Shown in pieces: positions 1 through 64,000 of a stretch of 64,000 nucleotides of DNA (its first letter is position 1; each line of letters starts with the position of its first letter). The DNA comes from Octopus sinensis (Eukaryota). A program made the translations under genes and the position numbers. The notes under the pieces were generated by a model. That model worked only from the letters and a program-made list of their open reading frames with translations, was not told where the DNA came from and did no database searches. Where the stretch lies: contig NW_021833026.1 of the NCBI RefSeq assembly GCF_006345805.1, positions 828,099 through 892,098 of the forward strand, written 5' to 3'.

Positions 1-1409
1 CTCCCGCATTCCTCCAGAGACTGACTTTCGCTAGGAGAATCAGTCAATTGGAGGATTCCGTCCAATGTCCTCAGACATCAAAACGTGAAAGCCAGGATGG
101 AATAGCCGCGGAATACTCCGTGAAGGCATCCCAGACAAACGAGACCAGTTTTGTCCCTTGTGAGGGGTGTCATCAAGTGGACTTGTGCGTCAAATCAGTT
201 TGCATGTCTCTTCTCATAAAATAGCTGGCAAATGAAATCGTCGAATTCTACGACAAAACAGAACGTGAGTCTCTGCTAAAACAAGTCCTTGATTCTCCCC
301 AAAAAGACCCCTCGGAAACAATTTCAATTCTGAGTGGAATGAGTGACGACATTTCAACTTTATTTTCACTTTTTCTGGACACCAAGTCGAAGGAAATGAG
401 TCTGGCCAGACTGGTGAAAGGGAAGGAGGCCAATCACAGTTCTCAGAAAATCTCATTTGAGCACAAAATTGTCGAGTTGGAGGCACAGATCAAAGCAAAG
501 GAGAGTCTAGAAGTGCAATTTGAGGCGGAACAGGCCAGATTGAGCTTGAAAATCGAACAACTGGAAGGAAAAGTAGTCGCTCTGCAGTCGGAAATTAATG
601 AAAAAAATAAAAAACTAGAAAATATTTCAAATGAAATGAGCAAACTCAAAGTGGCCGACGAGGAGTGCAGTTTGGCCTAGTTTGGTGACATTTAGAGGCA
701 CAAAACTCTGATTTGAGGCAAAGATTGGAAGCCAGTGAGGAATATTCAAGCAAAAGAGACAACGAGTTTTTACAAGTCGAACAAAAATGCAAAGATTTGG
801 CTTGTTCGGTGGAAAAGGAGAGAACTTTAAAATGCTCTTTTGAGTCCTGCCTGAAGGTGGAATTGTCTTGATATGCCTGTAGACAGTCCAGGACAAGCAA
901 ATGGGGTTGTTGGACAGAATTGAGGCTTTGAGTGAGAAATGCCATGCCCTCGAGCAGGAGAACCTCGAACTGGCAGAAAAATGTCAACTGGCAGAGAATC
1001 AGGGACTAGCTAAGGACAAGTTGTTGTTCAACATGACACAGGAGAAGATCAATGTTGGATTACAGTTTAACCTCAGGCGGAAATGTCGGCACGTGCTTTG
1101 AAGTGTGAGAATGAACACAGTTCGGCACTCATCAAAGAGAATGAGGAATTGAAAAAAATAGCGTACGATAATTCAGAACAATTGAAGCGTGCAACGAAAC
1201 AATGCGGAGAATTGAATGAAAGGGTGAATCTGCTGTTACACTATCCTGATTTGAATGGGCCAACTGAGGTGTCGGGGATGGGGAATGTGCAGGAGGATAT
1301 GGAGAATCAGATTCGGTCAAACGAGTTGAGAGTCCAGCTTTTAGAACAACAGAACAAAAAAATGAGGAATTCTGTGGCAAAAATGATTCAAAGCAAAAAT
1401 CTTATTTAA
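1..1409 (+). CDS. CCDC157: CCDC157-like coiled-coil protein (5' partial, spliced)
   Basis: Motifs SQTNETSFVPCEGC and LLHYPDLNGP...QEDMENQIRSNELRVQLLEQQN resemble CCDC157. The frame is restored by GT-AG introns at 198-224, 670-695, 857-882 and 1054-1076. Confidence 0.7.
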
Positions 1410-1508
1410 TGGATATATTTAATACTTGTAAAAATATATTCATTTTTAAAGATTAAGAATTAATTAAAATTAGAATTTAAATGTGCAATAAATGTTACAC
1501 GTTTACTT

Positions 1509-2362
1509 ATGGTATCGAAGTTGGTCAAACAAAAAACAAAGAAAAATACTGAAAAAGTTGAAATTACGGAAACAGAGGATATAAATTCAAATTGGAAAAA
1601 ACTAAAAAAGGTCAAATTGAGACAAAACATTTACAGGAATTAAGTTCCAACACCACAAAAACTAAAAAGAAGAATAAAACCAAATCCACCCACAAAATCA
1701 CACAAATCAAACCTCAAAGCCCAACAACTGCTGCACTCCCTCAAGAAGTTCCCCGGAAAGTCTCAAACCTGACAAAACTAGTCGGCCTCGACTGTGAAAT
1801 GGTGGGAGTCGGCCTGGAAGGGAGAGAGGATGCCCTCGCCCGCGTTTCTCTGGTCAATTCTCACGGAATCTGCATCTTTGACCGATATCTACAAATCCCC
1901 GAAGAAGTGGCCAACTACCGAACCCACGTGTCCGGCATCCGCCCCTCCGACATTGCCTGCGGTGGTCTCTCTTATATATTCGTAGGATGGGACTTTAATG
2001 ACGTGATGGCCGATGTGCACTGTTTGGTGAAGGATCGGATAATTGTGGGCCACGATTTGCGGAAGGACTTTAAGGTAGGTTATATTGGGGAGGATAGTTG
2101 CTGTACATTTCACATTCCAAGAGATATGTGCGTGATACGTCCACGTTTTATGTGTTTAAGCAAATGTTTGGGGGACGGAGGCCGTCGTTGAAGAAGTTGA
2201 GTAAACAACTGCTTGATTTGGACGTTCAGATGGGGGAACATGACTCGGTAGTGTTTGTGGGTGATTGAGGTGGCGGATGCGGCGGCGGCCATGAGGTTGT
2301 ACAAACTGTACAGGACTCAGTGGGAGGAACATGTCCGCAAGGCTTTCGGGCCGGCAAAGTGA
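1509..2362 (+). CDS. REXO4: RNA exonuclease 4 (DEDDh)
   Basis: NSNWKKL, LDCEMVG, LARVSLVN, IVGHDL, RPSLKKL and HDS-VADA motifs; introns at 1611-1636, 1962-1985, 2075-2097 and 2248-2269. Confidence 0.9.
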
Positions 2363-2899
2363 TTTATTCTGTGTGAATATATTTTCTTTTTATATATGCT
2401 CACTGTATTATATATGCTACAGGGGATTGGGTCAAACATTGTTTCACTAAAAATTGTTTTTAGTTTATTAGCCGGTTTGAGAACAAGTTTATAAATTACT
2501 GGAGATAACTTGAAATTAAGTTTTCTGTGGCAATCCAAAGCAATTCCATTCGCGATCGAATTTTCAATAACCAACAAAAAGTACTTTTTTCCGGATTGTA
2601 TATTCAACAAACGATTTTTAGCATATAAACAAATTTTGTTGAAATTAAAAATATTTTCGAGAGTAACAATTCATTAGCCATTCATTCGATGCTCTTAAGT
2701 TTGTAAAGTTCATATTAATGAGAGACATATTTGCAATATTGTCCCATTGTAAATTTATAAGAAAAAGCATTTTTATTTTTCTTCACTGTAAGTACCATAC
2801 AACAATTCAGTAAAAAGTACTAATTTTTATAACAAGAAAAGCAGGAACTATAATATTGAGATCAGAATTGTTGAAAAGCGTCATTAACTTTACATTATT

Positions 2900-3420
2900 A
2901 TTATTAATAAGCACACCGCAAAATAACGTTAGTAAAGATATCTCGCTTGTGCCACCCTCTCCTGGATGCGTTTTGTTAATCGCTTCCCTCTGTTCCTCGA
3001 TAGTTCTCTCAAGTGCTCAAGATTGTCTGCTGATTTCAGCCTTTTTCCAATCAAACTTAGGTTTTGGTGCAGGAGGGTTGGTAGAGTGATTCGTGGTCTT
3101 CCTCGGAAGTTTGTTCCCGGGTGGGGGGCGTAGTGGTGTTCCATTGCGAGATTTGCAGTTTTCCTGTCCATTCTTAGGATGTGACCGAATAAGCCCAATC
3201 TATTACTTCTTATTTCTTCGTCCAACGGGTGTGCATTGTACCTGGAGTAGAGATGTTTGTTTGAAATTCGTTTTGGCCAAAAGATTCCTAGGATGTATTT
3301 TAGCTGCATTAACTTTACATGGTTTTCAAAATATCGTCAGTTTTTGTTAGACAATTCGAAATAATGTTCCCACGCGTTATGTACGGCCTAATTGTTTTTT
3401 ATTCGAGCTACAATGGAACC
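2900..3420 (-). mobile_element. Non-LTR retrotransposon 3' fragment (C-terminal to the RT)
   Basis: RLGLFGHILRMD...RGRPRITL motif typical of LINE ORF2 C-termini. Confidence 0.7.
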
Positions 3421-9093: not shown

Positions 9094-9881
9094 ATGCCAA
9101 AATCTAAAAGAAAAAATAAGAGTAGTGGTTGTAATTAATTATAGTTTGTCTGACAAACACAAAGAAGAAGGGCGCAGAACATAAGCAGCAGCTCATAGAA
9201 AACGTGATTTGCGTAAACACAGCCTTCTTTAGATTCGAGAAGCAATTTTGAAATACGAGCGCCTGTTTGTGTTCTCAGCCCACAACTTTCTAAATTCTGC
9301 AATGCACAATATTCGAGTGGGGCTGGCAGACTCGCGGTTGGTCTGCCTTCTTCACCTTCCAGCATTTTCTTTGGCAAAAGAAGGTGATGGCCATTGCCTT
9401 GTCCTCATTTCCCGACCTCCAAAAAATGGGCGATCTTTTATGCAGAGACAGGGGTCTCCTGTTTACCATCGATCCCAGGCTGACATTCTGAAGTAGTCCC
9501 TCATCCATCTTCTAGTTATTTCACTGAAATGAGAGTCCCCAATTTCCCGCGTTCCGGATTTACCGCGGAAAGTCAAGTCACGTTAAAGGAGGGAATTTAT
9601 GATCAATTCCCCTCCTCAGTGGAAGCCTATTTGAGATCGCTCGGACTCCCCACGTCGCTGGAGAAGGGTTGCTTTGTCTGTAGAATGGCAGGGAAGGTGA
9701 GACTGATGCCGACTATGAGTTGTGTTCCCCCGAGATGTCCTCACCCCCGAAAAGGCCAATCTTCTGGTATTTTAGTTCTCCCTCACTGCAGAAACAATTT
9801 GGCTACAAAATGGCCGAATTTTATATTTCCATGGATGCGGTGTGGTCAAAATCTGAGGGCAAGATTACCACGTTTGTCTAA
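9094..9881 (+). pseudogene. MRTO4: mRNA turnover 4 (ribosome assembly factor), copy A, with several 1-bp indels
   Basis: MPKSKR start and LRSLGLPTSLEKG; near-identical to the intact inverted copy at 39178-39970 but frameshifted. Confidence 0.75.
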
Positions 9882-12601: not shown

Positions 12602-14059
12602 TTAATTTTTCCTAGAATATGACCTCCTCCCTCTCTCATCGACGGAAACCAGGTACCACGAATTGTCCCAGACCATGTCCAGTGAATGGATAGGCTCATA
12701 AGGAACTATTTTAATACCAATCCAATTACTCTTATCATAAGCCTCCTCACGATCCTTCATAATCCGAGTGTACTCCTCCGCCGACACCCTCATTCGGCCT
12801 GCCAACGTCGACTCCAAGTCCCGAGACCCAGTCCTCAGTGTAGCCAGCACGGTCTCATCCTCAGAAAACCTCATTTTAAAGAGGGAGGATGTATATCCCG
12901 AACCATACGAGAACATGAGCACATTTTTCCCCACAAGAGCACTGTCCTCACACCTTACAACAATGACCCCACAAAACTCACAGCGAAAAGGCAGAAATCA
13001 AACTAAAGTACAAGGAAGCCGTATATGCGTTGCCAATTATTTTGTTGAGTCTTAATCCCTCACTAACTTTATCCGCCATAACTTGAGCTGATTTTTTAAC
13101 ATAGTATGACTCGACGGCCTTATCCCCAAAGACAGAACTGTCGACGACGAGTTCCCTGAGACTGACAAGGGAAAGGCGACTTGAATTGGTCAGGGAGGTC
13201 ATCGCGCTCGTCGAACATGCTCAGCAAGGCCACCGACTTGACTACCAGCTTGGTGAAGGGACAGTGCATGAGGACCACATCGACCGACCCCAGTGACCCT
13301 CCTTACATGAGTTATCACACACACCCTCAAGATTGCGGTAGCAGTCGAGGAGAGCCTCGTAATAACACTTTATAGAGAGTCCCCCGTCCACCGTCGGGTA
13401 CTCGGAGGTCATGTTTGGTTTGTAAAAGTCGTAGGCATGGGCCATGCAGCTTGTCTTGGAATCTACGGTGAGAGAAGGAAGTACTATTCTCGAGGACAAT
13501 GGCAGCATTGGGGCCCAAAAGCACAGCCACGGCCCCCGCCCCGCCCGTACAACGAGCATTCCCCGAGGAGTACACAGCAATGTCGACCATCACGACCAAG
13601 GCATATCTCCGACCTACCCACGTGACATAACACGTGACCATCCCAGGCAGATGACTCGAGCCAATTAATAGAATTGAAAAGAGCAGCAGTCCCGCCATAG
13701 CAGGCATTTATGCAGTCCACTCCTTCCACGTTTCGGTTGCCACTTTCGGCAAAGAGAGCCATCAGGTAACTCTTCACGGACTTGCACTTGTCCACGATTG
13801 ATTCGGTCCCCACTTCCAGTCTTCCAATGTCTTTGTAGTCTATTTTGCACGTCCTCATTAGTTTGTCCACAGCGTTCATGGCCAGAGAGACCACGTCTTC
13901 CCGGTCGCTGCAGAATGCCATTTGTGATTGGCCTATTCCGATTGTGTATCTCCCGGTGGAGACTCCGTCCAGTCGCTCGAGGTCATCCTGGCCTACGTAC
14001 AACTTGGGAACATAGGCGCTCATTGACACTATTCCGAGATTTGTGCGATTGACAGGCAT
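12602..14059 (-). CDS. HMGCS1: Hydroxymethylglutaryl-CoA synthase
   Basis: [48 protein letters not shown] and FSYGSG; six tiny introns (25, 22, 23, 19 or 25, 28 and 24 nt). Confidence 0.95.
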
Positions 14060-14859
14060 TGTGAGATGTGTTCGTTTATTTATTCCAATTTATTCCAATC
14101 GAGTCAAAAATGCTTCACGATTATTTTTAATTAATTTAACAAAAAATAAAACTCCAAGTTTTGTCTTTGATTCAGTAATTTTCCTAGGTATATAAGTTAT
14201 TTAATTGCATCTTTGGTTAACCTCATTAAACCACAACAAATATGCCAAAAATTAGTGATAAATTTTTAAGATTATATCCCTCTAACTAAAAAATCAACTC
14301 GGTAAGTCTGGGACTTGTTCAGACAGGTCTGCTCTAGTCCGGGCAAAATGAAAGTGACTTTGGAAGTGAGGCAATAAGTGTGCTTAGGCATATTTGCCAT
14401 TCCAATAGTGTCAGATAACAAAACAGTGACAGCTATATTTAGTATGGCTGTCAATCCTGGCCAATCTATTCGGATTTTCTCTCTAGGATAAGTCAGGAGT
14501 GCTCTTAGCATTTTCTTTGTTTGGGCGCAATTATTGACTGACAGATTGATTAATGCAGCGATGTGTCGAACTACATATAACCGCTTCTCTCAGGTCGTAC
14601 AGAGTGCATGACTAGTCGGCAAGAGGAGGATAGGCCAAGTTGGACGTCCAGCAATGAGTTAGTACTCGACTTGATTGGAATAGTGATACAACTCAGTGTG
14701 TGATTAAACTATCCCAAAACATACATTTGGCCAGAAAATATATAAACAAACTCTCACGTTGTCTTGCAATCAAGTTTTCTCTCTCCTAACTAATCCAAGT
14801 TTATTTTAGGACGGAAAACGAGAACAGTCGACCCATTTCCGCACGAGAAACCCCCCAAT

Positions 14860-16187
14860 CAAGTTTCCCCTCCCTTTCAGGGGCAGACGAATACGTGGAT
14901 GCCAACATCCAGTCCATCATCCAACACCTCGACATTTCCAACAACCAGCTGACCAACCTTACTCGCTATTTGTCCACGAATATAAAGTGGTTGGTTGAGA
15001 TCTTTCATTCCCAGCACAAAGATCTTCCACGAGGAGAGAGAGACCGTCAGACTGTCGGGAATACAACGACTTGTAAGGTGGGACATCACGTGTAGGACTC
15101 CCCCACCCTGGCCAGCTGGGACTTTGACGTCTACTCGAAGAAGGACACGCTGCCCGACTCGATTTTGACGACAATCTTCTACTCAATCTTTAAAGTGAGT
15201 TGTCTGACTGAGACAAAGCATCGAGAATTTGAGAGAAAACTAAATATTGGGCTGTCGAAGTTTGTCCGACTGATCCAGCGAGTGGAAAACAAATACCACA
15301 AGCAGAATCCATACCACAACAACTTCCACGCGGCCTTGGTGGTGCACTCACTCAACGCTATGCTCGACATGGCCTTCTTCGAGGTGTTGACGGGGTCATT
15401 TCCAGGGGTTCTTTTCTGACTTGCAAGTCTTTTCCGCGCTGTTGGCCGCAGCCATACACGACGTGGATCATCCGGGACTGAGCAACACATATCTGGTCAA
15501 CACAAGTAGGTCCCCTGGGCTATTCAGACTCCCAGCTGGCTCTGATCTACAACGACATTTCTGTGCTGGAGAATCACCACTTAGCCACCGCCTTCCAACT
15601 CATGAGGAACCCGACAGCGAAATTCTCGTCGATTTCAGCACTCAGGACAAAATGCTGGTGAGGAAGCTCATGATTGAAATGGTCCCGTCTCGACTGACTT
15701 TCCAGGTCATGGGGACCGATATGAAAGCCCACCACAAACAACTGGCCGACATGGACCGACTCCTTCAGACCAGGGGAAACCAGTTCAAGGAGAATTGCAC
15801 ATTCGAGGACCGAATCCAGGTCAGGGCCGTCTTTGATGCCAGATTCTGAAATATGCCCTTCATTGTGCAGACATTAGCAACACAGTGAGGTCTTTCGACC
15901 AGTACTGGGAGTGGTCGAGCAGACTGATGGACGAAAACTTTATTCAGGGGGACTTGGAAAGGACTAATTTGTCGCCAATTAGTCCACATTGTGACAGAAA
16001 CGACTTTGACTTTGCAAAATGGCAGGTTGACTACATTCCTTCATTTCCTAAGGTCAGTTTCATGGAGAACATTGCTGCTCCCCTGTGGAGTGGGTGGGAC
16101 AGGCTGGTCTCCCCCGGTGATGACAAATTTTGTCAAATTATCAAAAGGAACTTGAGGCAAATGATTTCCAAACTGAAAAACGATTAA
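14860..16187 (+). CDS. cAMP phosphodiesterase, PDE4-like (5' end unresolved, possibly from about 14242)
   Basis: NPYHNNFHA, AIHDVDHPGLSN, SVLENHHL, TDM, HCADISN, F.QGDLE and ISPHCDR; eight tiny introns; apparent 1-bp deletion near 15604. Confidence 0.88.
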
Positions 16188-16613: not shown

Positions 16614-18490
16614 ATGACAGACACAAAACCCACCAAATCCCACGTGAGATTCCTAACCGAGTCAGACGAAAAAAAGAGAGACAACAAAAAAACAACCAAA
16701 ACGAATATCGACCACGTACCACCAGAAAAACTAGAAAAGTACAGTCGAGGGCAGGAAATGCAACCAGTAAATCCAATCCATAACCCCAGCTTAAATTTAA
16801 ATCCAAACGCTTCACCTCCAAACTGCTCGAGCGTGAAAGACAGGCCAAATTCGCCCAAACTCAGTCAGCCAAGGCGGAGTCCCTGCTGACAGAAGGACAC
16901 GGGTAGTCCCCCTCTCTACGACCAGATTCATCGAGCTGGAGGAAGGCGAGGAGTACTTCCGAATATCCCAACAAGACATCCTCAAGTCCTCCGCCATCTC
17001 CACTGCCCAAAAGGTGTGTCTGACACTCCTACTGACAGAGCTTCGACCTTTCCCTCCCCCAATTCGGGCCCTATCGAGTTGCCTACACTCGGAATGGGCA
17101 GACCATGGCCCTGGCGGGACAGAAGGGACACGTAGCCATGTTCAGGTGGCTATCCAAACAGCTATCGGCTGAATTCAACGTGATGGAGGGAATTAATTCA
17201 ATTTGGTAAGTTTGGGTTAACCATTCAGTTATCTCCACAACGAGACAATGCTGGCTGTGGCACAGAGGCAGTGGACCTTTATATACGACAATCAGGGACT
17301 GGAGTTGCACTGTCTCAAGGCTCTGGACTGTGTTCGGTGTCTCGAGTTTCTGCCATACCACTTTCTGTTGGCTGCGAGTGTTGGCTGTGGGTGGAGGAGT
17401 TTGTAGAGCTCGAAGGGGTTTCTGTCGTATTTGGACGTGTCTGTGGGGCAGATTGTGTCGACTATTCCCACCAGACAAGGAGTGTTGGATGTGATGACTC
17501 AGAACCCTGATAATGCTGTGATATTGCTGGGGCATCAGAAGGGTTGTGTTGTGTCTTATTTGGTAGGGTCTGTCACTATGTGGTCCCCTTCTCAAAAGGA
17601 ACCGTTGGTGAAGATGTTGTGTCACAAGTCGCTCGTCCACGCCCTTTCAGTTACCAGAGACGGCGGGTAATTTTATATTATTTTATTATTAATTACTAAA
17701 TGGGGTTTCCCAGAGTGAAAAGTGTTAAAAGATTAATTACTAAATTAAAAATATTTATAAGGTTTTTTGCATCGTCTGGAGGAGACGGGATGGTGAGGAT
17801 TTGGGATTTGCGAATGAACTACAAGCCACTCCACAACATCAGACAAGCGAATGGAGGACGGCAAAACCTCGACTTTTCCCAGCTGGGTCTGTTGGGAGTG
17901 TCGGGAGGGAATGTAGTGCAAGTAAGTGAGGTGACTGACCCAGATATACAAAGGACTGAGTTCTCGACTGTGTGAGGACTCGAAGCCTTATCTCCGCCAT
18001 CGATTCTCCTCGTTTGTGGAGAACATCAAATTCTGTCCATTCGAGGACGTGCTGGGCGTGGGGTTCAAAGGAGGGGTGTCCAGTCTCATCATTCCTGGTT
18101 TGCTTACTAAAGGGAGAGGCAGGGGCTGGGGAACCCAACATTGATGCCCTCGAGTGCAATCCCTACCGCACCAAAAAGCAGCGACAGAACACGGAAGTCC
18201 GCATGCTGCTCGACAAGATTCAGCCCGACCTGATTGGGATTGACAACTGTCTGTTGGGGACTGTCCACACGGGGGAGGGGACGGTTATGACTGAGAAGGA
18301 GGCATTTGTGCCCAGACGGAAGACGAGGAACCAGTCTGGGGCAGTCGGGGTGCACAAAAGGAAGCAGTTGGTCGCGGAGTCACGGAAGATTGCGGCTGTG
18401 AGGTCTGCAAGGGCAGCCAAGGGTGGGACACTTCCAGAAAGGAAATTTGAACCAGTCGTCTATAGTGATCCATTGGACAGATTTAAATAA
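16614..18490 (+). CDS. WDR46: WD-repeat protein 46 / Utp7 (BING4)
   Basis: [42 protein letters not shown] and [25 protein letters not shown]; tiny introns plus one 95-nt intron. Confidence 0.93.
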
Positions 18491-18563: not shown

Positions 18564-19396
18564 GTGCGACTGTCAATAGATATCTACAACCAGAGTCCCC
18601 AGTTCACCAACGCAGTGCGACAGCGTGAGATTACATTGAGAGGTGAAATTACAAACTAATTTCAGACCTGAACATATCCATAATAGAGAACACAGGAATA
18701 ACGTTAGACCAGTTTGACTATTTTGATTTGTGCAACAACGACATTGCCAAACTGGACGGATTCGCCCTCCTCAGACGCCTCAAGACAATTTTGGCAGCCA
18801 ATAACCGAATAAGGTGTGTCTTCCACTCACTCTAGTCGTTTCGGGGACGACCTAGAACAGACTATTCCCAATCTGCGTTGTCTCATCCTCAACAACAACT
18901 CAGTCCACGATTTCTCCGACATCAACAAGCTCTCAAAGTTGAAAAGACTGTCTTATTTGTGGTATCGAGTGAGTAGTAGTGTCTAGTCTGGTGGGGAATC
19001 CCATTTTCAGTCGCAAACATTACAGGAGTTACGTAATATATCGACTTCCTCAACTGAGGGTCCTCGACTTCCAGAGAATATCGCGGACGGAAAGACTGGA
19101 GGCAGCCAAACTGTTCAAGTCCAAAAAGGCCGTCCGGGAGGCTGAGACAGAGGACAGTGCCCCGCCCGTGGTGTGTGACAGACCCACTCTCGGATACCTC
19201 ACCACCAACGAACGGGAGGCTCTCAAAGTTGACTGAAATGTGTCATTCTCAGAGGGCTATTATTTTCTCGACTAGTCTTGAAGAGATTGCGAAATTCCAG
19301 GAGATACTCGACACAGGGAGACCCCCCGATGGCATATCTCTGGGAGAACTGTTGCGTCATTCCGCTGGACCAGAGAAAACTGAGGATGTTCAGTGA
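18561..19396 (+). CDS. SNRPA1: U2 snRNP A' (LRR)
   Basis: MVRL..QFTNAVRQRE, TLDQFD, LDGF.LLRRLKT and YRSYVIYRLPQLRVLDFQ; four tiny introns. Confidence 0.93.
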
Positions 19397-32425: not shown

Positions 32426-34935
<2,510 letters not shown>

Positions 34936-35253: not shown

Positions 35254-36833
35254 ATGCCGAAAGAAAGCACTTTGAACAGTTTCACATCAATATCCACCAA
35301 ATCCCAGTCCTCAATAAAAGAAAGATCCACAACAAAACTAAGACCTCAAGACAGGGCCTTCCTTTCCTCCCTCTACCGACGAATGAACTCCAGATTAACC
35401 CCCACAGCAGACTCTGTGGCACTCTCCAACATCTTCAAAAACTTTTCTGACTCGGATTTGAAGGACCTGGCCCAAAAGGACGCGATGGGCAGACGCCTGG
35501 ACACTGCTGAGGGCGATTTCCTCATCCCCGACCGACAACGCACAAACACGGCCATTCTGGAGACCAAAATGTCGATGGGCCACACCTCAATGCGGGAAAT
35601 GCTGCCCAAGAATGCCTACGAGGAAAGACTCAACCACATCCTCTTCAATGGACAGCTCGGGGACAACAATGTGTTCAGATATGGCCATCCCTCCAAAGAC
35701 AGAGGTCCCCTCCCTCCACCAACATAGATCCCTATATCAGAATGACACAGGCATTGGACAGCATTGTGGATGAGAAGTGTCCGAAGAGTAAGTTGGAGAC
35801 AATCGAGAGGGAACCCAGCTGTGTGTTCAATTGTCCGGGACTGGCGGATGACTACTGTTGGGTGGCCTAATCGATGGTAGATTTGAACGTGCTGGACTGT
35901 TCGATCAGCACAAAAGTGGCGGTGGGGTTGCAGGACTATGTGTATATATGGGACAACTCCACCCGAAGGACGACTCGTCTGTCCACGTCCTCCCAGAATG
36001 ACAAGACGCTGTGTTCTGTCCGGTGGAGTGTGAGTGGGAGTAGTCTGGCAGTCGGACTGTCGACGGGGAGTGTGGAGATATGGGACATTGCCACATCCCG
36101 AGTGGTCCGCTCGATGTGCATGCGGATGGGCAGGATTGCTTCCCTGGCCTGGAATGGCATTGGCCTCACCAGTGGGTCCCGTTCTGGCATGATGTTCAAC
36201 CACGACCTGAGAGTACGGGACCACAAAGTCCACACCTATTCAAGACATTCCCTCGAGGTGTGTGGACTCAAGTGGGCGGGTGATGGCAGGAGGCTCGTCT
36301 CCGGGGGGAACGACGACATTGCCTGTGTGTGGGATGCCCGCAATCTCAATGTCCCCGCCAACGTCTTTGTCCACCAAGCCGCGGTCAAGGCTGTCGATTG
36401 GAGTCCTCAAAACACTTCTTTGCTGGCCACGGGAGCAGGGTCAGACGATAAGAAGATTCGTTTGTTCAATGTGTCCCTGGGAAGTGAGATTGCTCAGCAC
36501 GACACAGGGGAACAGGTGGGATAGGATGGATTGTGTGTTAGGTCTCCGCCGTTGTGTTTTCCAAGGTCAGCAACGAGTTGTTTAGTTCGCATGGATCCCC
36601 CGGGAATGAAATAAATGTGTGGAGTCTGCCCAAATTGAAGAATTCCTACAGTATTCCTGGTTGTCTTTCCTTGGTTATTCGTAGCTCACTCTGCCAGGAT
36701 TCTGGGGATGGTGATGTCCCCCGATGGAAAGATTGTGGCCACTTTATCCTCCGACTGTACTCTAAAGATGTGGGACTGTGTTAGTAGAACTAAGCCCAAA
36801 ATATCTGCCTTTACAAATCCATTCATTTATTGA
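35254..36833 (+). CDS. CDC20: APC/C coactivator CDC20/Fizzy family WD40 protein
   Basis: C-box-like GDFLIPDR, PGLADDY|YLNVLD, HSLEVCGLKW, SGGNDD and HQAAVKAVDWSP; four tiny introns. Confidence 0.85.
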
Positions 36834-50784: not shown

Positions 50785-52323
50785 CACTCCATGTAATAAA
50801 AAACCGGATTTTCAAGTTTGCATGTTTTTACTAGTATTTTTTTAAATGTATATCAATTTTTAAATTACTTTTCAGCAATCGTTTGTTGTATCTTTTTACT
50901 ATTTTTAAATTTTTTTTTTTTTTTAAATACATTTTTTTTTTTTAAATACTTTTCAGCAATCGTTTGTTGTATCTTTTTACTATTTAAAAAAATTTTTTTT
51001 TTTATTTTTAAAATTATAATGTATATTTGAGTAATTGATCTTGATAAAATCTTAGCGTGTATTAAAAAACCGGATTTTTTTGATTAGTCGTTGCTAAGCC
51101 AATTTTTAGGTATTTAAAAATGCTTGATAAAATCACAAGGAAAGACTCTAGCTCTCATTCAATTAAATGGACACAAAAGAAGATTGTTGAGGAGCTGAAT
51201 ATTCCAACTTCGACTCTCAATGATTTTCTGAATAAGTTAAATAAAAAAGGGACTGTTGATCGTATACCTGGTTCTGGAAGACCCAAAAAGCTCTCTAACT
51301 CAGATATTTGTAAACTTGTCAACATTGTGAAAGAAAATCCAAAAAAACACTGGCCAACCTGAAAGAAGAAGTCTTCGATTTTACAGGAAAAGTTGTCTGC
51401 AAAAAAACAATAAGCAATTATCTACATGAAAATCATTACAAAGCATGTGTGTGTAAAAGAAAACCTTTTTTAGCAAAAAAAATAGTGAAAAACAATACGA
51501 GCTTTCAATAATCTTTTCTGCTATAAGCAATGAAACGTGGAGAACTGTTATATAGCCTGACGAGGCTTCCTTTGAAATTTTTTCATCTAAAAAAATAAAA
51601 TTTTGCTTTAGAAAAAAATAAAGCCTTAAATTATGCCCATTTAACTCCAACTTTGAAGTTTGGTGGTGGAAGAATTATGGTATGGGGTTGTATCTCCTAT
51701 CATGGAAAGGGGAATTTGGTTATAGTAAATGAAAAAATAAATTCTGCTGTATATATCAACATTTTAATAAATAATTTGTGAAAATCAGTAGATAAAATGG
51801 GGCTAAATCGTTTTATTTTCCAATAAGATTTGGCCCCCTGTCATAATTCACGAAGAACAAAACAATTTTTGAATGAGAAAAAATTGAATTATTAAATTGG
51901 GCAATACAATCACCAGATTTGAACCCAATTGAACATGTGTGGAGCTACATAAAGGAAGAATTGAGTAAAAAAATGCTGCATAGTAAAAAAGATTTATGCG
52001 AAAATATCATAAAAATTTGGGACGAAATACCAATGGAATTTGTGAGAAAATTAACTGAAAGCATGCCAAAAAGAAGCATTGAGCTTTATAAGGCAAATAG
52101 AGGACACATTAATTATTAATCATTTGACTTTTTTTCTAATCCGGTTTTTTTTACACAGAAAAAAATTAATATAATCAGTTTAGCTGTACAAAAAGATTAT
52201 TGAAAAATTATAAAAAGAAAAGTTACGAAGATTATCATTATAAATTAAAAAAAAGTCTAAAATTAAAAACAGAATATCAAAAAATTAAGCATTTGAAAAT
52301 CCGGTTTTTTATTACATGGAGTG
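50785..52323 (+). mobile_element. Full-length degenerate Tc1 element with IR/DR-type ends
   Basis: TA TSD; TIR CACTCCATGTAATAAAAAACCGG with inner AAAAACCGGATT repeats; GSGRPKKL, GGGRIMVWGC and SPDLNPIEHVW; multiple stops and frameshifts. Confidence 0.9.
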
Positions 52324-53766: not shown

Positions 53767-56403
53767 TCAAGAAAGACTGTCAATCAAATCACGAAAGGAG
53801 CAAACCAAGCGATGAACAAGTGAGTGATTGCCAATAGCCGACTATTATGAGGAGAAGACAATACCTCATCAAACTCATTTCTCAACATTCTACTAAGCCT
53901 CTCAATTATTGACTGAGTGGAAGAGAGAAAATTCCTCAGAGAATAATTAGCAGTAACCCTTTCAGCATAATACTTGCAGCCTGGCAGTTATAAGAGAACT
54001 CATACACTCCAACAAGTCACAGCATCTCTCCTCGACGGACTGGACAGTGCTGACACAGGCAGTCCACCCTTGGATGTGGAGTTGATGGTTCAAACACTTG
54101 CTCATATATTCCAACAACTATAATCAGCCACCACCCCACCACCAATAAATACTCCTCTGCACAAAAACAAGAGCCATCCACCACTTTCCTCTGCAGAGTG
54201 GACAGTGTGGCATAGAGGAGGAGACCGTCCTTTCCGTCCTCCACACACGTCTTTTCGTGACGAACACACAACTCCATCAATTTGGCTGTGTGGTCTCCAC
54301 TCGGGAGGGAGGCCAAGGACAACAAGATTTCGAGATCTCTGAATTTGTGGTTTATATCAAGGAGTCGTTGATATGCTTGAATGGCCAGACTGACCTGAGT
54401 GGTGTCGACAGTGAGCTGGAATACTGAGACGAGGGGAGTACATATAACACATTCTCCCACACTTTGGGGTTGTCGTAGTCCAGACGGGCTGCCTCCTGGG
54501 CCATTCGAATGCACCTCTTCTTACTACGAGTAGACAGACACAAATACTCGGTGTCGTACTGCATTACACACACTGACAAATTGGTCCACGCTTTGGAACT
54601 CTACAATATTGACAGACAGACCTCGTTCTCTATTCGAATGCAGGCCAGGAAGCATTTGGCGGCCTCTTTGAAGAGGACTCGGCCATGCAGGCACAGCCAT
54701 AGGAAAACCAGACATAGTACTGCATTACTAACACCACCAACCATCAACGAATTAATTTCCACTGCTCGACGGAAGTAGGGAATGGACTCCTTGGTTTGTG
54801 TCCGGTGGAAGTGCAGAAATGCCAGTCCTCGCTGAGCCGCCCCGGACTTGTGCCCCGACAGTTCCCAGGCTCGGTGGTAGTGCTCAGCCTCCTTGGTCAC
54901 ACACCCCAAGTAGCACAACAGAGCAGGCGTCTCCTTTTCTGCAATCCGCCGTCTTATCAACTCCTCTGCCTACAATAAAGGACTGCCCGACCTTCGCTCT
55001 CTGCTCGAGGTGTCCATAACACTCGATGAGGTCATCCCACTTCTCCAGACTCTCCAACAACTCGAGGGCGGAGGAGTACAGTCCTCCACTCATATAAACA
55101 CGACATAATTTGCACTACAGTCAGACCCCCGCGTACTCTAATGCAGTAGAGGGAGGGTGGACGAATCGAAAAGAAGTGTGCCAGGGTGAATGCTGTACTT
55201 CGAGGTTTGACCAACTCCTGCCAATGTGAGCACAGGCCACCTCCAGTTGCATCAATGCTCTCTGAATTCTGTTGGGGGAGGACAGTTCGACCAGACACCG
55301 AGTGAAGAGGACTGCCGCGTGGGCAAACACGTTCAAATCGAGACTCAGGAGGGTCTGTGGGTGAGAGGACACAATACTTGGCAATATGCAGACACAATCA
55401 TGTCCTGAGTGGCATCCCGAGCTCGCCGACTCAGTTCATGTCGACTGGATGTTAATCAGGCACATACGCTTCGAAGAGGACGAGGGCCACTTCGGAGGGG
55501 GACAGAAAGGGGACTGGGGGCATCTCCACTGAAGGCTTCATTTTCTCCAGGAGAACGTCGTCATTGAGGGGAATATCCTGAATGGGGGAGGGGGAATGTG
55601 GGGGGAATGGAGGGACTGTGTCGGCAGATCGACGAATGAGCACCACCAGCTGGGTCACGTCGAATGTTTGGTGGAGAGTAGTCCGCCCAGGCACACCTGA
55701 GGGTCACCACAACACCCGACCAGTCGACTCGACCGTGATCTCCTTCTTTTGGTGGATGGTTTGGAGAACTTTGTTCAGTTTGTCCCATTCGAAGTATTCC
55801 TCGTAGATATATCCCATCTCCAACAAAAAGTCCAACTCGGTGGTGCCCTCCTGGGACATGAAACAGGGATATTCGGGGGAGTGGGTGACTGGGCATTACA
55901 CAGACACTCACTTGAGTCGACCAAGTGGAGGCATTTGTCCTTCAAGAGGGGGGACAGTTCAGAGAGAGTGCTTTGGAGAAGAACGAGCACTCGCAGTCTC
56001 CACAACATCATTCTCTACTCTTAGGCATGTGCATTACAGTCGACTGGGATGGCTGGTTCACCAACAGATAGGCCACTGAGAGGGCGGGAAAATTATATCC
56101 TGGAGTGAGGTTCTCTCCGTTTGAACATAGGAGGGCTTCCATTGAATGTGAGTCAATCTGGGCTATAAATGTGGTCTTTTACTTTGATGGGGAATGGGGG
56201 TGCCTCTTTAGGCCTGGTGGAATAGTTATGTGTGATGAACTCACAGACACATTCCTTTACTGCCTCGACGAGGTCTCTACGAATACCACAAGAGAGTACG
56301 TGCTCTGGTTGAGTGCAATAAATGATTTGATGTGTTCCTCTATTTCCTCCACTGTGCTCTCTGTGGGAGGCAATCCCGCAAAAAGTTGATTAAGGTGAAT
56401 CAT
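53767..56403 (-). CDS. TTC27: Tetratricopeptide repeat protein 27 (Emw1-like)
   Basis: G.PGRTTLHQTFDVTQL, IPLNDDVLLE, RALMQLE, SALELLESLEKWDD, LLCYLG..HYHRAWELS..SGAAQRGL and YDNPKVWEN. Confidence 0.85.
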
Positions 56404-56465
56404 CTGGTTGTGCACGTGATAAAGAAATATTATTTGAATAAATATAATTAAAATATTAATTATTT

Positions 56466-56973: not shown

Positions 56974-57099
56974 GTTCGAGCAAAATAATCAGTCTTTGTT
57001 TATTAAACTAATTAATTTAAGATAAATCAAAATTAATATTTTTAATAGTACAAGTTATTCAAACTGACTTGTATTGTTGTTAATATATTCGTATAAATC

Positions 57100-57602
57100 A
57101 TGTCGCCGACAGACACTTTTGAGGTGGAAAGCATTAAGGATAAGAAGGTGGTCAACGGCATCACCCACTATTTGGTCAAGTGGAAGGGGCTCCCCAGGTA
57201 TTCCGCAATGTCATTTCAGCGACAAAAACACGTGGGAGGCGGAATGTGGCATGTTCTCCCCTAACCTCATCAAAAAATATGAAAATAAATGCAAACAGAT
57301 TAAGCGGGCCAAAAAAGCAAAGTCGGCCAGTTCAAGTGTGAGGAGACTTGTGGAAGTGAGTCCCACTGGACTGGAGGGGGAGACGGGTTTTAATCGAGGC
57401 CTTCTCCCCGAGAGGATTGTCGAACTGCAGAAAATAGAGGGAAGGCCAATGTTCCTGATGAAGTGGTATCCAACCCTGTCGATTGTGCAGGAAGTCGAGT
57501 ACTCCCCTCTACGACCTGATTCCTGTGTCGGTGGCGAATGCTCGGTGTCCGCAGACGGTCATCTCCTTCTACGAGTCCCGACTGGGTTACTATTGCCAAT
57601 AA
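57100..57602 (+). CDS. HP1/CBX chromo- plus chromoshadow-domain protein
   Basis: FEVESI..YLVKWKG..NTWE and GFNRGLLPERI..MFLMKW|K..ANARCPQTVISFYESRL. Confidence 0.9.
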
Positions 57603-57760
57603 AGTGTGTTTGTTGGGTGTGTCATGTGGCGTGTGTGATCGATAATTGCATAACTCTGTCATATATATAGCCGTAGTGTCGTCCACTCCACCACAGAGTA
57701 GTTTTATTATTATTAATGTTCATTTAGTAGTGATGACTGTTATTCGAATATGTTTAGGTC

Positions 57761-58381: not shown

Positions 58382-58384
58382 GAC

Positions 58385-59405: not shown

Positions 59406-59439
59406 TGTGCGGATATATGTGATCCAAAATGAATCTCCC

Positions 59440-60126: not shown

Positions 60127-60220
60127 AAATAGTTAATTATGGTTATGACGTTGTTTTTGTTCCTAATAAATAAATTACGTGTTATAAATTGTTGTTTTTG
60201 GTTGCGTCTTGTTGTCCAAC

Positions 60221-61236
60221 ATGCGAACAGTCGTTAAAAAGATTAAGATAAATAAAGTATCAATCAACTACCAGGAGAACGGGACTGTTACTCTCTCCAA
60301 TGTGTACTCGACTCGTCCTCTAAAATCAATTTATATAAATGGTTCCCCAATTGTGCACAAATGGTAGATAAACCACTCGAAATCACACAAATGAAATCAG
60401 TATGACCACCCAATATCCCCCTAGTCCACTCCACTCAAGACATCAGTTGTCGTCCAAGTGGGAGATGCGTCCATCAGAGAACAACCAACGTCGACCAAGG
60501 AGACTGGTCCTCCCACAAAGAAGACCCACGCGAAATCCTCAGAGAAGCGAAAAAGACCAGGAAAAGAAGGACTGCAATCAACAGTGCTGGATCGGACTGT
60601 CCCCTCAAAGAAAGCGAAACCGACGACGAACACGACGGTGGTAATCCGTCCAGCGAGTATTGTGTGTGGTGAACGGACAGACCCTCCGAATGTAATCCCA
60701 ACTCATACGTGGGTGGGCGTGCACAAGGGAGCCCCCTTCCGATGTGTCCTCGCAGTACTCATTCCTGGTTGTATTGCAGTCCGGTCGGGAGGTTGCCCGG
60801 GATGTCTGGTTCAGTCGAGTTCGGTCAGCGGGGGACAGTCCCGTCGAATTGGCCTCGAATGACACTTTCAGTTGTGGGGAGGGGGAGGTTGTGCATGTCG
60901 TGGGGTTCTGGCTGGACGAGTATGGCCGGTGGATGGTGACCGTCCTCAAGTATAAGGACTGTCGAGAAGGGTGGCTGCTGGCCACAGGAGAGGACATGGA
61001 CATTAGTCTGGACAAATTCGGGAAGAAATGTGTGGTGCTCAATCAGAGGGAGTATGCCCGGTTGTGCCAGTCTGTTTATTGGCAGGCTGAGGGGCGGAGT
61101 GGTGAGGAAGGAAGTGGGGATTGACAGACAGGACTATGTCAGGTCCAGTTCTATTCTGAGTGGGCCAGTCAGGTCGAAGGAGAGTTATATATCGGAGGAC
61201 TGTAATACTTTTTATTGTGCAGGTTTTGAGTTGTAA
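60221..61236 (+). CDS. Hypothetical protein with weak GATAD1/BAH-like C-terminus (3' end uncertain)
   Basis: Spliced ORF through 25-26-nt introns; VVGFWLDEYGRW..GEDMD recalls GATAD1 RGFIQDQYCEK..GPEED. Confidence 0.45.
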
Positions 61237-61275
61237 TCAGTTGTTTAAATAAATTGAATTAATTATATAATTGAC

Positions 61276-62285
61276 ATGAGTTTTGTTGGTTGTTGTTATC
61301 CAGCCCTACAATGTAGAAACAAATGCGAGAAACGGGTACATGAATCCCCCTCTCCCCCCTCAGCAGTCCATTGGGCATTTCCCCCACACACTCGTAGTGG
61401 ACAAGTGCGAACTGATTGTCAGCAACCTGGCCCCCTCAATCACCCCCGAATCGTTATTCTCCCTTTTCACGACAGTCCCCAATGTACGGCCTCCCCCTCA
61501 CTCAGGTCACCAACTGTCGACTGATGATGGACCAGTCGTGTGGCACCTCCCTCTGCTACGGATTCATTTCCTACGGCACACAGGAACAGTCCCAGAAGGC
61601 CATCGACACACTCGACGGGCATGTCGTCGACCAAAAGGCCATCCACGTCAGCTTCTCTCGCTGTCAGACGGGCAAGACTGAACTGCGGAATTTGTACGTG
61701 CAGAACCTGCCGCCCTCGTTCATGGAAAACAATTTGAAGATGCTTTTCGAGACATTCGGGCCTGTGCAGTCCCTCAAACTGTTGGTGGACGCCCACGGCA
61801 TGTCCAAGTGCAGTGGAATGGTCATGTTCTACCACCCTGTGTGTGCAGAGTCGGCCATTGCCGTGCTCAACTGCAAACAAGTACTCCCAGGCACTGACAA
61901 ACACATAATTGTGCGATATGCCCGACAGTCCTCCGTCAAAGTGACCACTGGCTTCCTCCCCTACTCCCACTATGACTACTTTCGGTATAGTCCTGTTGCC
62001 CGGAATGTGCCCCCTGTGCAACACCACTGTGTCTATGTGTCCAACCTAATCCCAGGATCTACTAATCTCCACTTGTACCAACTCTTTTCTCGGTTCGGGG
62101 CCATTGCCTCGGTCAATTCCCTCCCAGGCAACACCACCTGGGCGAGTAGTATTGGTTTTGTCAACTTTGTGAAATACGAGGAGGCCTGTGCTGCCGTGGC
62201 CGCCCTGAACATGTCCAAGATGGGTGCCTCAGAGGGTAAGACATTGAATGTGTCCTTCAAAAGTGATTTCCGTCGTAATAAATAG
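61276..62285 (+). CDS. ELAV/Hu family three-RRM protein (start codon uncertain)
   Basis: LIVSNL, TSLCYGFISY..AIDTLDG..IHVSFSR, NLYVQNLP, LYQLFSRFGAI, GFVNF and KTLNVSFK. Confidence 0.9.
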
Positions 62286-62525
62286 CACATATATTACCTT
62301 TTACATTGATCGTTATGCTTATTACTATTGCCATATTTATTATTATTCACATAGGACTGCCGAGGACACGGAGGATGTACTTACCTTCCATTTGATGGGT
62401 GCCTCAGAGGGTAAGACATTGAATGTGTCCTGCAAAAGTGATTTCCGTCGTAATAAATAGCACATACTTTATGCTCATTACTATATTTAATATTATTCAC
62501 ACCACTATAGGACTGTCGGAGGATG
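62220..62525 (+). repeat. Tandem duplication (offset 175 bp) of the ELAV 3' end
   Basis: ATGGGTGCCTCAGAGGG...AAATAGCACAT occurs at 62220 and 62395. Confidence 0.9.
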
Positions 62526-62657
62526 GTGACTTATTGGACAGTCCTCTCAGTTTAGTGTGAGGGCAAACATAGCATATTGATTATCGACTAACAGCTCGGT
62601 CAAACAAGAAGAGAGAGACATAATTATTAATTGGGTTAGTGTCCGGTTATTTGTTAT

Positions 62658-62930
62658 CTACAGAGCCAGTCCGTCCTCCGAGGGACCGTCCCTCCGCTAA
62701 AATAACATCAGTTACGATACAGATGAGGATTTGCCGGATGTCCGAGAGATTGTTCGGAACAGTGCGAAAATGCAGAATATGATAATTAGTACTGTGATTC
62801 CTGTTGTCAGTACATTTTTGTCAACTACACATATCAAATGTCGACAAATAATTACCATCCTGAGCTCCCTCTTGAGACCTCAACTAAAGAATTTAAGGAA
62901 TTCAAGGATTCACAGTTCGGACGAGTCGAG
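62658..62930 (-). CDS. Possible 3' end of a single-pass membrane protein gene
   Basis: VLTTGITVLIIIFCIFALFRTISR followed by a 24-nt GT-AG intron and a stop; upstream exons unresolved. Confidence 0.3.
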
Positions 62931-63549
62931 ACATGAGTGATTCGTAACAGCACACATTATCCATATTTAGACGCAACGTATTACTTTATTCAAGTCTATT
63001 TCATACATTTATTAGGGTTTACCTCGATAAAATTACAAAATGTTTATTGAACTAAAATAAGATACAACTAATTGTAATTTTTAAACTCATTATACCTGCA
63101 ACAGTAGACACTTAACTATGGACACGACCAAAGCTCCTTGGCGTTTATTTGGGCACATGTGCTAACTGGGCATTGGAATTAAATCACAAAGACGACAAAG
63201 GACATCCACGAACAATTTACTGTTATCTCAAAATATTTTCAACGCAGTAAAAGACAGCAGGGGTATAGCACACAGCTGCGGATAAATGTGATCCATGTGT
63301 TGCCTATGTGGGAACTTTATGATAGTTCAATAATGAACTCCTAATTTCGACTGATTAGAACACCGGCTATACTGATTGTTATTTGTGGAGAACATATATT
63401 CCCTGCGGACTATTCGTATCTGCATTGATTATTGGATTGACAGAGTCATCGCCGTCGAGTGTATAAAGTAATATTTATAAATATAATTTATTAGTTGTTA
63501 TACTTGAAATAATCGAAAGCGGTATTGATTCTTCGCAATAGTAATTTCC

Positions 63550-64000
63550 ATGACTGCTTGGGACTACACTTTTTGGGTAATTCCTCTGCCTCCTCCCTCA
63601 GAACAACTTTGGGGACTTGACTGACTTTGACGCGAAGGGCATCGACTTTTACGCGCAAGTGAACGAGTTCTGCAAGGACTTTGCGGCAGCCACCAGGAAC
63701 TACGGGTCCACGCTGAAGTATGGGAGTATTCCAACGGTAGGAAACTGTCGGACAAGTACTACCAAATAAAGCTGCGGGAGTACTGCAAGTTGGTGGGATG
63801 TGTTACCCAGTGACGACAGACTGGTCTTCTCTTCCGTGCTCGACTGGACGAGGGAGGTGGGGCAGTTGTTTGAGAAGGTGTTCGAGAATTACAGCCAGAA
63901 CGACGAAATATTCAAAATGAACATAAACTCCTTCAGAACGAACAACAAGAAGGCAATGTGCTTGTGTCACTCTCAGGCAGAGAAAGCCTACGACTCGACA
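63550..64000 (+). CDS. F-BAR protein, CIP4/FNBP1-like (3' partial)
   Basis: MTAWDYTFW|NNFGDL...GIDFY..NYGSTLK|KLSDKY parallels MSWGTELW|DQFDNL..GIDIL..SYAKQLRNLSKKY. Confidence 0.7.

What the first reader, a model, noticed from the sequence alone, without database searches (positions are those of the whole stretch)
198..63976. Window-wide tiny-intron system that looks length-defined rather than signal-defined
Seen: conserved proteins read through only after removing about 100 introns, nearly all 22-28 nt. Beyond GT and AG there is almost no consensus. There is no polypyrimidine tract (e.g. GTGGAGGGGGGTTGTCTATTGGTAG in CDC5L, GTAGTGTTTGTGGGTGATTGAG in REXO4), acceptors are often AAG or GAG, a CTAA/CTGA branch-like word is only occasional, and nearer AGs giving under about 20 nt are skipped (GTTGCTTTGTCTGTAG-AATGGCAG in MRTO4). 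Known: tiny introns occur in ciliates, chlorarachniophyte nucleomorphs, microsporidia and dicyemids, while most animal introns are longer and need U2AF-read signals. Inference: the 3' site is chosen by a ruler in a remodelled animal spliceosome. Two of its components (U2A', CDC5L) are encoded in this window.
Basis: partly seen in the sequence, partly recalled or inferred. Interest (0 to 1): 0.78.

Follow-up and report, generated by a model that had tools for sequence, protein, structure and literature searches.

The report
Dicyemid tiny introns, hidden branch point
This DNA likely comes from a dicyemid, a tiny parasitic worm already known for very short introns, sequenced along with its host; its genes are split by introns of 22-28 bases that nearly all carry an adenosine about 17 bases in, which likely serves as the branch point of an ordinary splicing machine.

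Summary
The tiny introns are real. A public run lacks exactly seven of them (22-25 nt, GT-AG), and a self-trained model predicts about 120 of 22-28 nt in the window. The window sits on a cobiont contig in a 2.7-Gb host assembly. A contig sharing its transposons encodes an aldolase 95% identical to Dicyema acuticephalum. Such introns, with reduced GT/AG motifs and no pyrimidine tract, are published for dicyemids (PMC13644364), so the phenomenon is known.

The 'ruler, not signal' reading is half right. Length alone picks 47 of 48 verified acceptors, signals alone 40, both 48. But 46 of 48 introns have an A at nt 16-19, at least 6 nt from the end (shuffles 23.6). An AG ending at nt 22 is used when an A sits at 16-17 (15 of 17) and skipped when none does (1 of 10). 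U2, U6, SF1, U2AF1, Slu7 and SF3B1 are present; the U2 and U6 recognition sequences are canonical. One lead: SF3B1 Y623L and G742A. The scan noted a similar branch-to-AG rule in a fungal contig (e1-7126939), none in a dicyemid.

The parts
12706..12729 (-). 24-nt intron, HMG-CoA synthase
   Evidence: absent from X1 contig, GT..AG
13156..13180 (-). 25-nt intron, HMG-CoA synthase; skips an AG ending at nt 19
13302..13324 (-). 23-nt intron, HMG-CoA synthase, AAG acceptor
13463..13484 (-). 22-nt intron, HMG-CoA synthase; shortest verified; A at nt 16
13614..13638 (-). 25-nt intron, HMG-CoA synthase
18098..18122 (+). 25-nt intron, WDR46/BING4; skips AGs ending at nt 15, 19 and 21
19228..19252 (+). 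25-nt intron, U2A'
33309..33333 (-).
   Evidence: homology margin 5.9 bits
44627..44651 (+). 25-nt AlaRS intron that skips a CAG ending at nt 22, 4 nt after the A at nt 18
   Evidence: homology margin 13.4 bits
45847..45897 (+). long AlaRS intron (48 or 51 nt) with no AG before nt 48: longer introns exist
9668..9691 (+).
   Evidence: gene-model posterior 0.99; sequence; not covered by RNA
2248..2269 (+).
   Evidence: posterior 0.94; RNase_T domain
198..1409 (+). coiled-coil gene, 4 predicted introns of 23-27 nt
12612..14059 (-). HMG-CoA synthase gene
   Evidence: PF01154; X1 contigs
14608..16187 (+). cyclic-nucleotide phosphodiesterase gene with tiny introns
   Evidence: PF00233
16617..18486 (+). 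WDR46/BING4 gene
   Evidence: PF08149
18561..19396 (+). U2A' (SNRPA1) gene, 4 introns of 22-25 nt
   Evidence: PDB U2A' hits; LRR_9 in consecutive exons
32426..34927 (-). CDC5L gene, 13 predicted introns of 23-26 nt plus a first intron of 27 nt by homology
35383..36684 (+). CDC20/Fizzy-family gene with tiny introns
   Evidence: PF24807
43763..47055 (+). alanyl-tRNA synthetase gene
53767..56403 (-). TPR-repeat gene, 16 predicted introns of 21-26 nt
57100..57586 (+). HP1-like chromo and chromo-shadow gene, introns of 22 and 28 nt
51060..52250 (+). transposon fragment (Tc1-like label recalled) found only on small contigs; used to bin the cobiont's contigs

Best explanation
The window is likely DNA of a Dicyema-like dicyemid co-assembled with its host; its genes carry GT-AG introns of 22-28 nt with an adenosine at nt 16-19, and these are likely removed by a conventional U2-type spliceosome that uses this A as branch point and then takes the first good AG 6-9 nt further on. 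Shown: the introns, their removal in seven cases, the positional A in a TnAY context, YAG preference, no pyrimidine tract, and genes for U2, U6, SF1, U2AF1, Slu7, SF3B1, SF3A2, U2A' and CDC5L. Inferred: that the A is the branch nucleotide; that about 16 nt (5' end to A) plus about 6 nt (A to end) are the two shortest distances this spliceosome accepts, which would give the observed floor of 22 nt; and that introns shrank to that floor, so that length predicts the acceptor as a by-product of two minimum distances, not through a dedicated ruler. Longer introns (48-52 nt) without an early AG persist, so the distances would be minima, not fixed lengths.
For: Taxon: aldolase on C8901 is 93% identical to D. 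acuticephalum over exon 1, next hits 47-55%, and 343 of 361 residues overall. C8901 shares the window's transposon at 93% over 1191 nt, and stretches near the aldolase match C9497 repeats at 96-99% over 500-820 nt. RPS13 has the three intron positions of D. japonicum RPS13 (by eye). Geometry: A at nt 16-19 and at least 6 nt from the end in 46 of 48 verified introns (shuffles 23.6+-3.0, maximum 34 of 2000) and 200 of 227 introns from a model that used no sequence signal (123.6+-6.5); held-out DNA 16 of 20 (9.1+-2.1). 65 of 65 23-nt introns have an A at 16-18 and 50 of 51 24-nt introns at 16-19; AG at nt 22 used 15 of 17 with A at 16-17, skipped 1 of 10, Fisher p=1e-4. Both-distance model picks 48 of 48 acceptors and 47 of 48 donors with the donor motif. 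Machinery: a second U2 family with canonical GTGTAGTATC, a 100-nt U6 with ACAGAGA, SF1 (42, 44, 108), U2AF1 (65, 68, 71, 105), Slu7 (59, 61), SF3B1 and SF3A2 on the window's own contig (49, 52).
Against: No lariat or branch mapping. The gain over a pure length rule among verified introns is one intron (48 against 47 of 48), and that intron (RPS13) was resolved by eye. The 16-19 window was chosen after viewing; the held-out test is small and one or more of 2000 shuffles reached the observed 16. Two verified introns lack such an A. Only 7 introns have transcript support, from one run of unrecorded kind. No window gene itself matches a named Dicyema record; the link is through shared repeats. U2AF2, U1, U4 and U5 were not tested.
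Confidence: 0.72

Rival explanations
1. Single ruler: the spliceosome measures total intron length and takes the AG nearest 23-25 nt; the A enrichment is secondary.
For: 'AG nearest 24' and 'most probable length' each pick 47 of 48 acceptors; length carries 2.4 bits; no verified intron is under 22 nt; length alone picks 44 of 48 donors.
Against: It does not explain why use of an AG at nt 22 follows the A, why a two-anchor branch model fits better than either anchor, or the 48-52 nt introns. D. japonicum has Q90 = 32 nt and a maximum of 2855 nt (supplement of PMC13644364).
Confidence: 0.13
2. Same geometry, but on a specifically altered 3' recognition machinery: U2AF2 lost or bypassed (for example by SPF45/RBM17), or SF3B1 changed so that weak branch sites without a pyrimidine tract are accepted.
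For: No pyrimidine tract. SF3B1 has L at human Y623 (Y in 115 of 115 homologs with the motif) and A at G742 (G in 114 of 114). Y623C alters 3' splice-site use in a human reporter (10.1101/2024.02.01.577593, passages). U2AF1 ends after a short Arg run.
Against: SF3B1 differs at 56 of 489 invariant columns (about 13 beside two apparent assembly frameshifts) and its end branch is 0.62 against a median of 0.04, so two changes at such sites are within background. E622, R625, H662, K666, K700, G740, K741 and D781 are kept. SF1 keeps a ULM-like stretch and SF3B1 two RWD motifs (ULM label recalled), which hints that a UHM partner exists. Myxozoans with similar introns keep U2AF1 and U2AF2.
Confidence: 0.12
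3. Signals alone define the 3' site (branch motif, distance to AG, YAG) and short length is incidental.
For: Near-universal A and YAG in 41 of 48.
Against: With the 5'-to-A distance left flat, only 40 of 48 acceptors are picked; the motif is too weak (TnAY) to stand alone.
Confidence: 0.02
4. The segments are not spliceosomal introns but assembly errors, coding insertions or retained sequence.
For: The assembly has single-base indels, and some predicted introns under 21 or over 40 nt are probably such artefacts. Retention could not be measured.
Confidence: 0.01

Closest known systems
Dicyemid ultra-short introns (D. acuticephalum PMC2222250; Dicyema sp. PMC6543705; D. japonicum PMC6736024, PMC13644364; Ogino 2010 seen only as cited)
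   Same: GT-AG introns of 22-28 nt (D. japonicum quartiles 23/24/25), several per gene, 5' signal near GTa, 3' signal near AG, no pyrimidine tract, weak As that lie further from the AG in longer introns; repeat-rich genome near 37-40% GC.
   Different: Probably another species than D. japonicum (RPS13 exons differ widely, by eye; aldolase 95% to D. acuticephalum). Here the A is shown to be near-universal but spread over 3-4 positions, both distances are measured, and dicyemid U2, U6, SF1, U2AF1, Slu7 and SF3B1 are identified; the 2026 paper surveyed U2 and U2AF in myxozoans only, as far as the text and supplement passages seen show.
Myxobolid myxozoan introns (PMC13644364)
   Same: Median 22-27 nt, reduced motifs, canonical U2 branch-recognition region, U2AF1 kept.
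   Different: Cnidarian lineage, independent origin; U2AF2 shown there, untested here.
Stentor coeruleus 15-16 nt introns (PMC9505925)
   Same: Branch-type A at a fixed short distance from the 3' end; conserved U2 and U6 recognition sequences.
   Different: A at nt 10-11 and almost one length; here nt 16-19 and a spread of 22-28 with a long tail. Stentor branching factors Cwc25 and Isy1 are altered; not tested here.
Paramecium 23-26 nt introns (PMC12862383) and Bigelowiella nucleomorph 18-21 nt introns (PMC6009652)
   Same: Similar size, weak signals, efficient splicing reported in a narrow length range.
   Different: Those introns are strongly AT-rich and the nucleomorph has no discernible branch A; these are about 42-43% GC with a clear positional A.

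Membership tests
Dicyemid (Dicyema) genome | Proteins closest to named Dicyema records | tested here: met
   Aldolase on linked contig C8901: 343 of 361 identical to D. acuticephalum. No window gene has a Dicyema record in the hits; AlaRS best hits about 70% to other animals.
Dicyemid (Dicyema) genome | Window belongs to the same organism as that contig and not to the host | tested here: met
   Shared transposon on small contigs only, none on C1-C30 among 40 of 86 candidates scored; repeats 96-99%; separate host copies of aldolase, RPS13, SF1, Slu7, U2AF1, U2, U6 on large contigs.
Dicyemid (Dicyema) genome | Placement by phylogeny of a gene on the window's contig | tested here: inconclusive
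   SF3B1 tree of 25 rows without a dicyemid or outgroup: long branch, no supported placement.
Dicyemid (Dicyema) genome | Median intron 24-27 nt | tested here: met
   Verified introns 22-28 nt in 48 of 49; model peak 23-25.
U2-type spliceosomal introns | GT..AG ends removed from transcripts | tested here: met
   7 of 7 deletions of 22-25 nt in X1 contigs; run kind not on record.
U2-type spliceosomal introns | Branch adenosine near the 3' end | tested here: inconclusive
   Statistically strong positional A in TnAY; use as branch nucleotide not shown.
U2-type spliceosomal introns | Polypyrimidine tract | tested here: not met
   Y 0.57-0.61 against 0.55 background; also absent in other short-intron U2 systems (PMC13644364).
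U2-type spliceosomal introns | U2 with GUAGUA and U6 with ACAGAGA | tested here: met
   loci share repeats with the window's contig.
U2-type spliceosomal introns | SF1, U2AF1, SF3B1, Slu7 genes | tested here: met
   65, 68, 71, 105; 49, 52, 80; 59, 61. SF1 and Slu7 contigs share repeats at 92-99.8%.
U2-type spliceosomal introns | U2AF2, U1, U4, U5 | not tested
   The U2AF2 family search gave no answer; U1, U4 and U5 were not searched genome-wide.
U2-type spliceosomal introns | Lariat intermediate | not testable with these tools
   Only assembled contigs of one run were available.
   AG at nt 22: 15 of 17 used against 1 of 10 skipped have an A at 16-17.

The most novel reading that the evidence does not exclude
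Dicyemids run a spliceosome tuned to a 17-nt lariat with no pyrimidine tract, and the tuning includes fixed SF3B1 changes at sites whose mutation shifts 3' splice-site choice in human cancers (Y623L, and G742A, whose hotspot status is recalled). The lineage would then be a natural genome-wide experiment on how SF3B1 hotspot residues set branch-site stringency and on the smallest lariat an animal spliceosome can form.
Probability: 0.12. Interest if true: 0.72.

Novelty: new member of a known kind. Interest (0 to 1): 0.33.

Why it matters
The introns themselves are known for dicyemids, so the finding as titled is not a surprise. What this adds is modest but useful. The 2026 survey ends by saying it is open how such introns are recognised; the two measured distances (about 17 nt to the A, 6-8 nt to the AG) would explain the 22-nt floor and give a direct minigene test. 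It gives a first look at dicyemid U2, U6, SF1, U2AF1, Slu7 and SF3B1 among the papers searched. It also shows that a host assembly hides a sizeable genome of a Dicyema species that is probably not D. japonicum, with contigs up to at least 0.9 Mb, which standard gene finders would mis-annotate.

Tried and rejected
Model-free excess of GT..AG pairs by distance in 264 kb: too noisy, controls reached similar z-scores. First self-training run let the coding model swallow intergenic DNA and produced about 3100 mostly false introns; discarded and redone with a frozen coding model and repeat mask. The flat model recovered only 12 of 37 verified introns at posterior over 0.5, the trained ones 32 of 37; the coding model was seeded with the same genes, so this is not fully independent. 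No RNA holder was listed by the run search. The second lay (window 43700-63650) covered no predicted gene intron. Rfam search for U2 in G000 listed only host-type copies; the first U2 pattern found nothing, not even the host, because both U2 families carry an extra A. No RNA family in the window, and host U2 found nothing in the loci then held. U2AF2 remains unsearched. My first guess, a myxozoan in a fish assembly, was dropped. The SF3B1 tree could not place the organism. Comparing the two Ig-domain gene copies did not separate introns from exons in the expected direction (15 of 205 intron against 131 of 992 exon positions differ). Paper searches for SF3B1 + SUGP1 + Y623/G742 and for Y623C found none. 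One U2AF1 segment after the first zinc finger could not be parsed into introns and was left out of the verified set. No complex or structure prediction was run.
Full report
Where the window comes from. The window is the last 64 kb of G000:C9497, a contig of 892,098 nt in a 2.72-Gb assembly of 13,516 contigs. It is gene-dense, unlike the large contigs, whose aldolase, SF1 and Slu7 exons lie kilobases apart. A transposon fragment at 51060-52250 matched only small contigs among the 40 of 86 candidates scored. One of them, C8901 (93% over 1191 nt), carries two aldolase genes with five introns of 25-28 nt each. Their first exon is 93% identical to Dicyema acuticephalum aldolase, the next hits 47-55%; the whole protein is 343 of 361 identical. 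Stretches near these genes share repeats with C9497 at 96-99% over 500-820 nt. An RPS13 on other small contigs has the three intron positions of D. japonicum RPS13 but widely different exons (by eye). So the window is very likely from a Dicyema species other than D. japonicum. Dicyemids live in cephalopod kidneys (PMC2222250, passages), so the host is probably a cephalopod. No window gene matched a named Dicyema record, and an SF3B1 tree was uninformative.

The observation. The quoted strings are present. One public run, X1, of unrecorded kind, held 26% of the sampled words. Its contigs lack seven segments of 22-25 nt in HMG-CoA synthase (5), WDR46 (1) and U2A' (1), each GT..AG on the coding strand. 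The second lay covered no gene intron. I wrote a spliced protein-to-DNA aligner with one flat penalty for any intron of 10-90 nt and ran it with homolog profiles for AlaRS, CDC5L, SF3B1 and aldolase. Of 48 introns, 35 had both ends resolved by at least 4 bits: 34 of 23-28 nt and one of 51. With the 7 RNA introns and 7 set by eye in RPS13 and U2AF1, the verified set is 49, of which 48 are 22-28 nt. A gene model self-trained on 804 kb of C9497 from a flat length prior peaks at 22-28 nt and predicts 123 such introns among 146 in the window. 'About 100, nearly all 22-28 nt' is confirmed.

Signals. There is no pyrimidine tract, and no intron position carries more than 0.26 bits, against 2.4 bits for length. 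But acceptors are YAG in 41 of 48, the exon ends in G in 69% and has A before it in 56%, and an adenosine sits at a nearly fixed place. In the set predicted without any sequence signal, A peaks at nt 16 in 22-nt introns (59%), nt 17 in 23- and 24-nt (64%, 57%), nt 18 in 25-nt (49%) and nt 17 in 26-nt (54%). An A at nt 16-19, at least 6 nt from the end, is present in 46 of 48 verified introns (shuffles 23.6+-3.0, maximum 34 of 2000) and 200 of 227 predicted ones (123.6+-6.5). That window was picked; on DNA not used before, 16 of 20 fit (9.1+-2.1, maximum 16). A latent-position fit gives TnAY(T) with A at 0.97, position mostly 16-19 (mode 17) and 6-8 nt to the end; cross-validated log-likelihood is 18 with no anchor, 91 with the 5' anchor, 83 with the 3' anchor and 109 with both. 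Because the A is spread over 3-4 positions, logos and the eye see only a weak signal. TnAY resembles the loose human branch consensus (recalled).

Ruler or signal. Given the true donor and all AGs giving 10-45 nt, rules scored on the 48 verified introns: first AG from nt 20, 44; from 22, 45; from 23, 46; nearest 24 or most probable length, 47; signals only with free 5' distance, 40; best A in 16-20 then first AG at least 6 nt on, 47; both distances plus motif, 48 (parameters from introns outside the verified set). The sharper test is an AG ending at nt 22, which is a permitted length. In the pooled 271 introns it is used 17 times, 15 with an A at 16-17, and skipped 10 times, 1 with such an A (p = 1e-4). 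All 65 introns of 23 nt have an A at 16-18 and 50 of 51 of 24 nt at 16-19. Some 22-versus-25 choices in the predicted set are in frame and lean on the length prior, which should blur this link, not create it. Introns of 48-52 nt with no early AG occur in AlaRS and SF3B1. The reading I favour is two minimum distances, about 16 + 6 = 22 nt, with introns shrunk to that floor. The branch role of the A is inferred, not mapped.

The machinery. On the window's contig: U2A', CDC5L, SF3B1 and SF3A2. On small contigs with tiny introns and shared repeats: SF1 with KH domain, U2AF1 at four loci, two of which share repeats with C9497, and Slu7. A second U2 family, about 190 nt and distinct from the host's, occurs in 13 of the 15 small-contig loci fetched (one truncated, one divergent); 12 of these share repeats with C9497, and it keeps the canonical GTGTAGTATC. 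A 100-nt U6 with a short 5' stem and an intact ACAGAGA box occurs on three such contigs. U2AF2, U1, U4 and U5 are untested. SF3B1 keeps E622, R625, H662, K666, K700, G740, K741 and D781 but has Leu at human Y623 and Ala at G742, invariant in 115 and 114 homologs (numbering beyond residue 691 by offset). Y623 is a disease-mutated residue (PMC5238730, passages), and Y623C shifted 3' splice-site use in a reporter (10.1101/2024.02.01.577593, passages). Against over-reading: 56 of 489 invariant columns differ and the protein evolves fast.

What is known. Dicyemid introns of 26.2+-1.9 nt (PMC2222250, passages), median 27 (PMC6543705, passages), mean 38 (PMC6736024, passages) and median 24 with GTa/AG motifs, no pyrimidine tract and weak As further from the AG in longer introns (PMC13644364: parts 1-2 of 3 of the text, supplement passages and part 62; logo pictures not visible) are published. 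That paper surveys U2 and U2AF in myxozoans and leaves recognition open. Stentor has a fixed A at nt 10-11 with canonical U2/U6 (PMC9505925, passages); Paramecium and nucleomorph cases were read as passages; the SPF45 paper only as a listing. Searches dicyemid+intron+Dicyema (12 papers), dicyemid+spliceosome (6) and tiny introns+branch point+spliceosome+minimum (5) showed no dicyemid spliceosome inventory or branch geometry, but most were seen as listings, Ogino 2010 was not read, and subscription journals are largely missing. An earlier scan note (e1-7126939) describes a like rule in a fungus; I did not test it.

Verdict. Real, in a lineage where it is already known; mechanism refined from a single ruler to a likely branch-anchored pair of minimum distances on a conventional spliceosome. 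New member of a known kind, interest 0.33.

Noticed in passing
G000:C9497 and 30 or more small contigs listed: A dicyemid genome is co-assembled in the host assembly, with contigs of 0.3-0.9 Mb; several genes occur in near-identical copies on different contigs (RPS13 x4, U2AF1 x4), perhaps haplotypes.
   Followed up: partly
L038:3040-3540 (-) (G000:C9497, about 791,100-791,600): SF3B1 has Y623L, G742A, N619S, D621E and Q698E in the region where human cancer mutations cluster; two apparent assembly frameshifts lie further downstream.
   Followed up: partly
window:4314-5919: Integrase-type DNA transposon with 44-nt inverted ends (TGT..ACA) and a TAATA direct repeat; a 99.9% copy lies elsewhere on the contig. 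By eye it carries its own short GT-AG introns. 'Ginger-like' is a recalled label.
   Followed up: partly
window:8991-10000 (+) and about 39065-40073 (-): MRTO4 gene duplicated as an inverted copy, 98.7% identical, with different small indels in each copy (assembly errors or decay).
   Followed up: partly
window:26196-27500 and 28220-29600: Tandem Ig-domain genes, 84% identical; exon positions differ more (131 of 992) than predicted intron positions (15 of 205), which may mean diversifying selection or conversion.
   Followed up: partly
window:59956-59987 (-): An X1 contig about 95% alike skips 31 nt with GT..AG ends inside a reverse-transcriptase element; splicing of a retroelement transcript or a deletion in another copy.
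   Followed up: no
L044-L046 and L142-L155: Dicyemid U6 is 100 nt with a shortened 5' stem-loop; dicyemid and host U2 both have an extra A before the branch-recognition sequence relative to the myxozoan U2s.
   Followed up: partly
L084:1627-1680: U2AF1 segment after the first zinc finger that may be two tiny introns around a micro-exon or hold an indel; not resolved.
   Followed up: no
window:40680-42412: Transposase-like pair of ORFs (246 and 252 aa, no Pfam hit) between 22-nt imperfect inverted ends.
   Followed up: no
window:61340-62285: Three-RRM ELAV-like gene with a long intron-free exon, unusual in this intron-dense region (ELAV label recalled).
   Followed up: no
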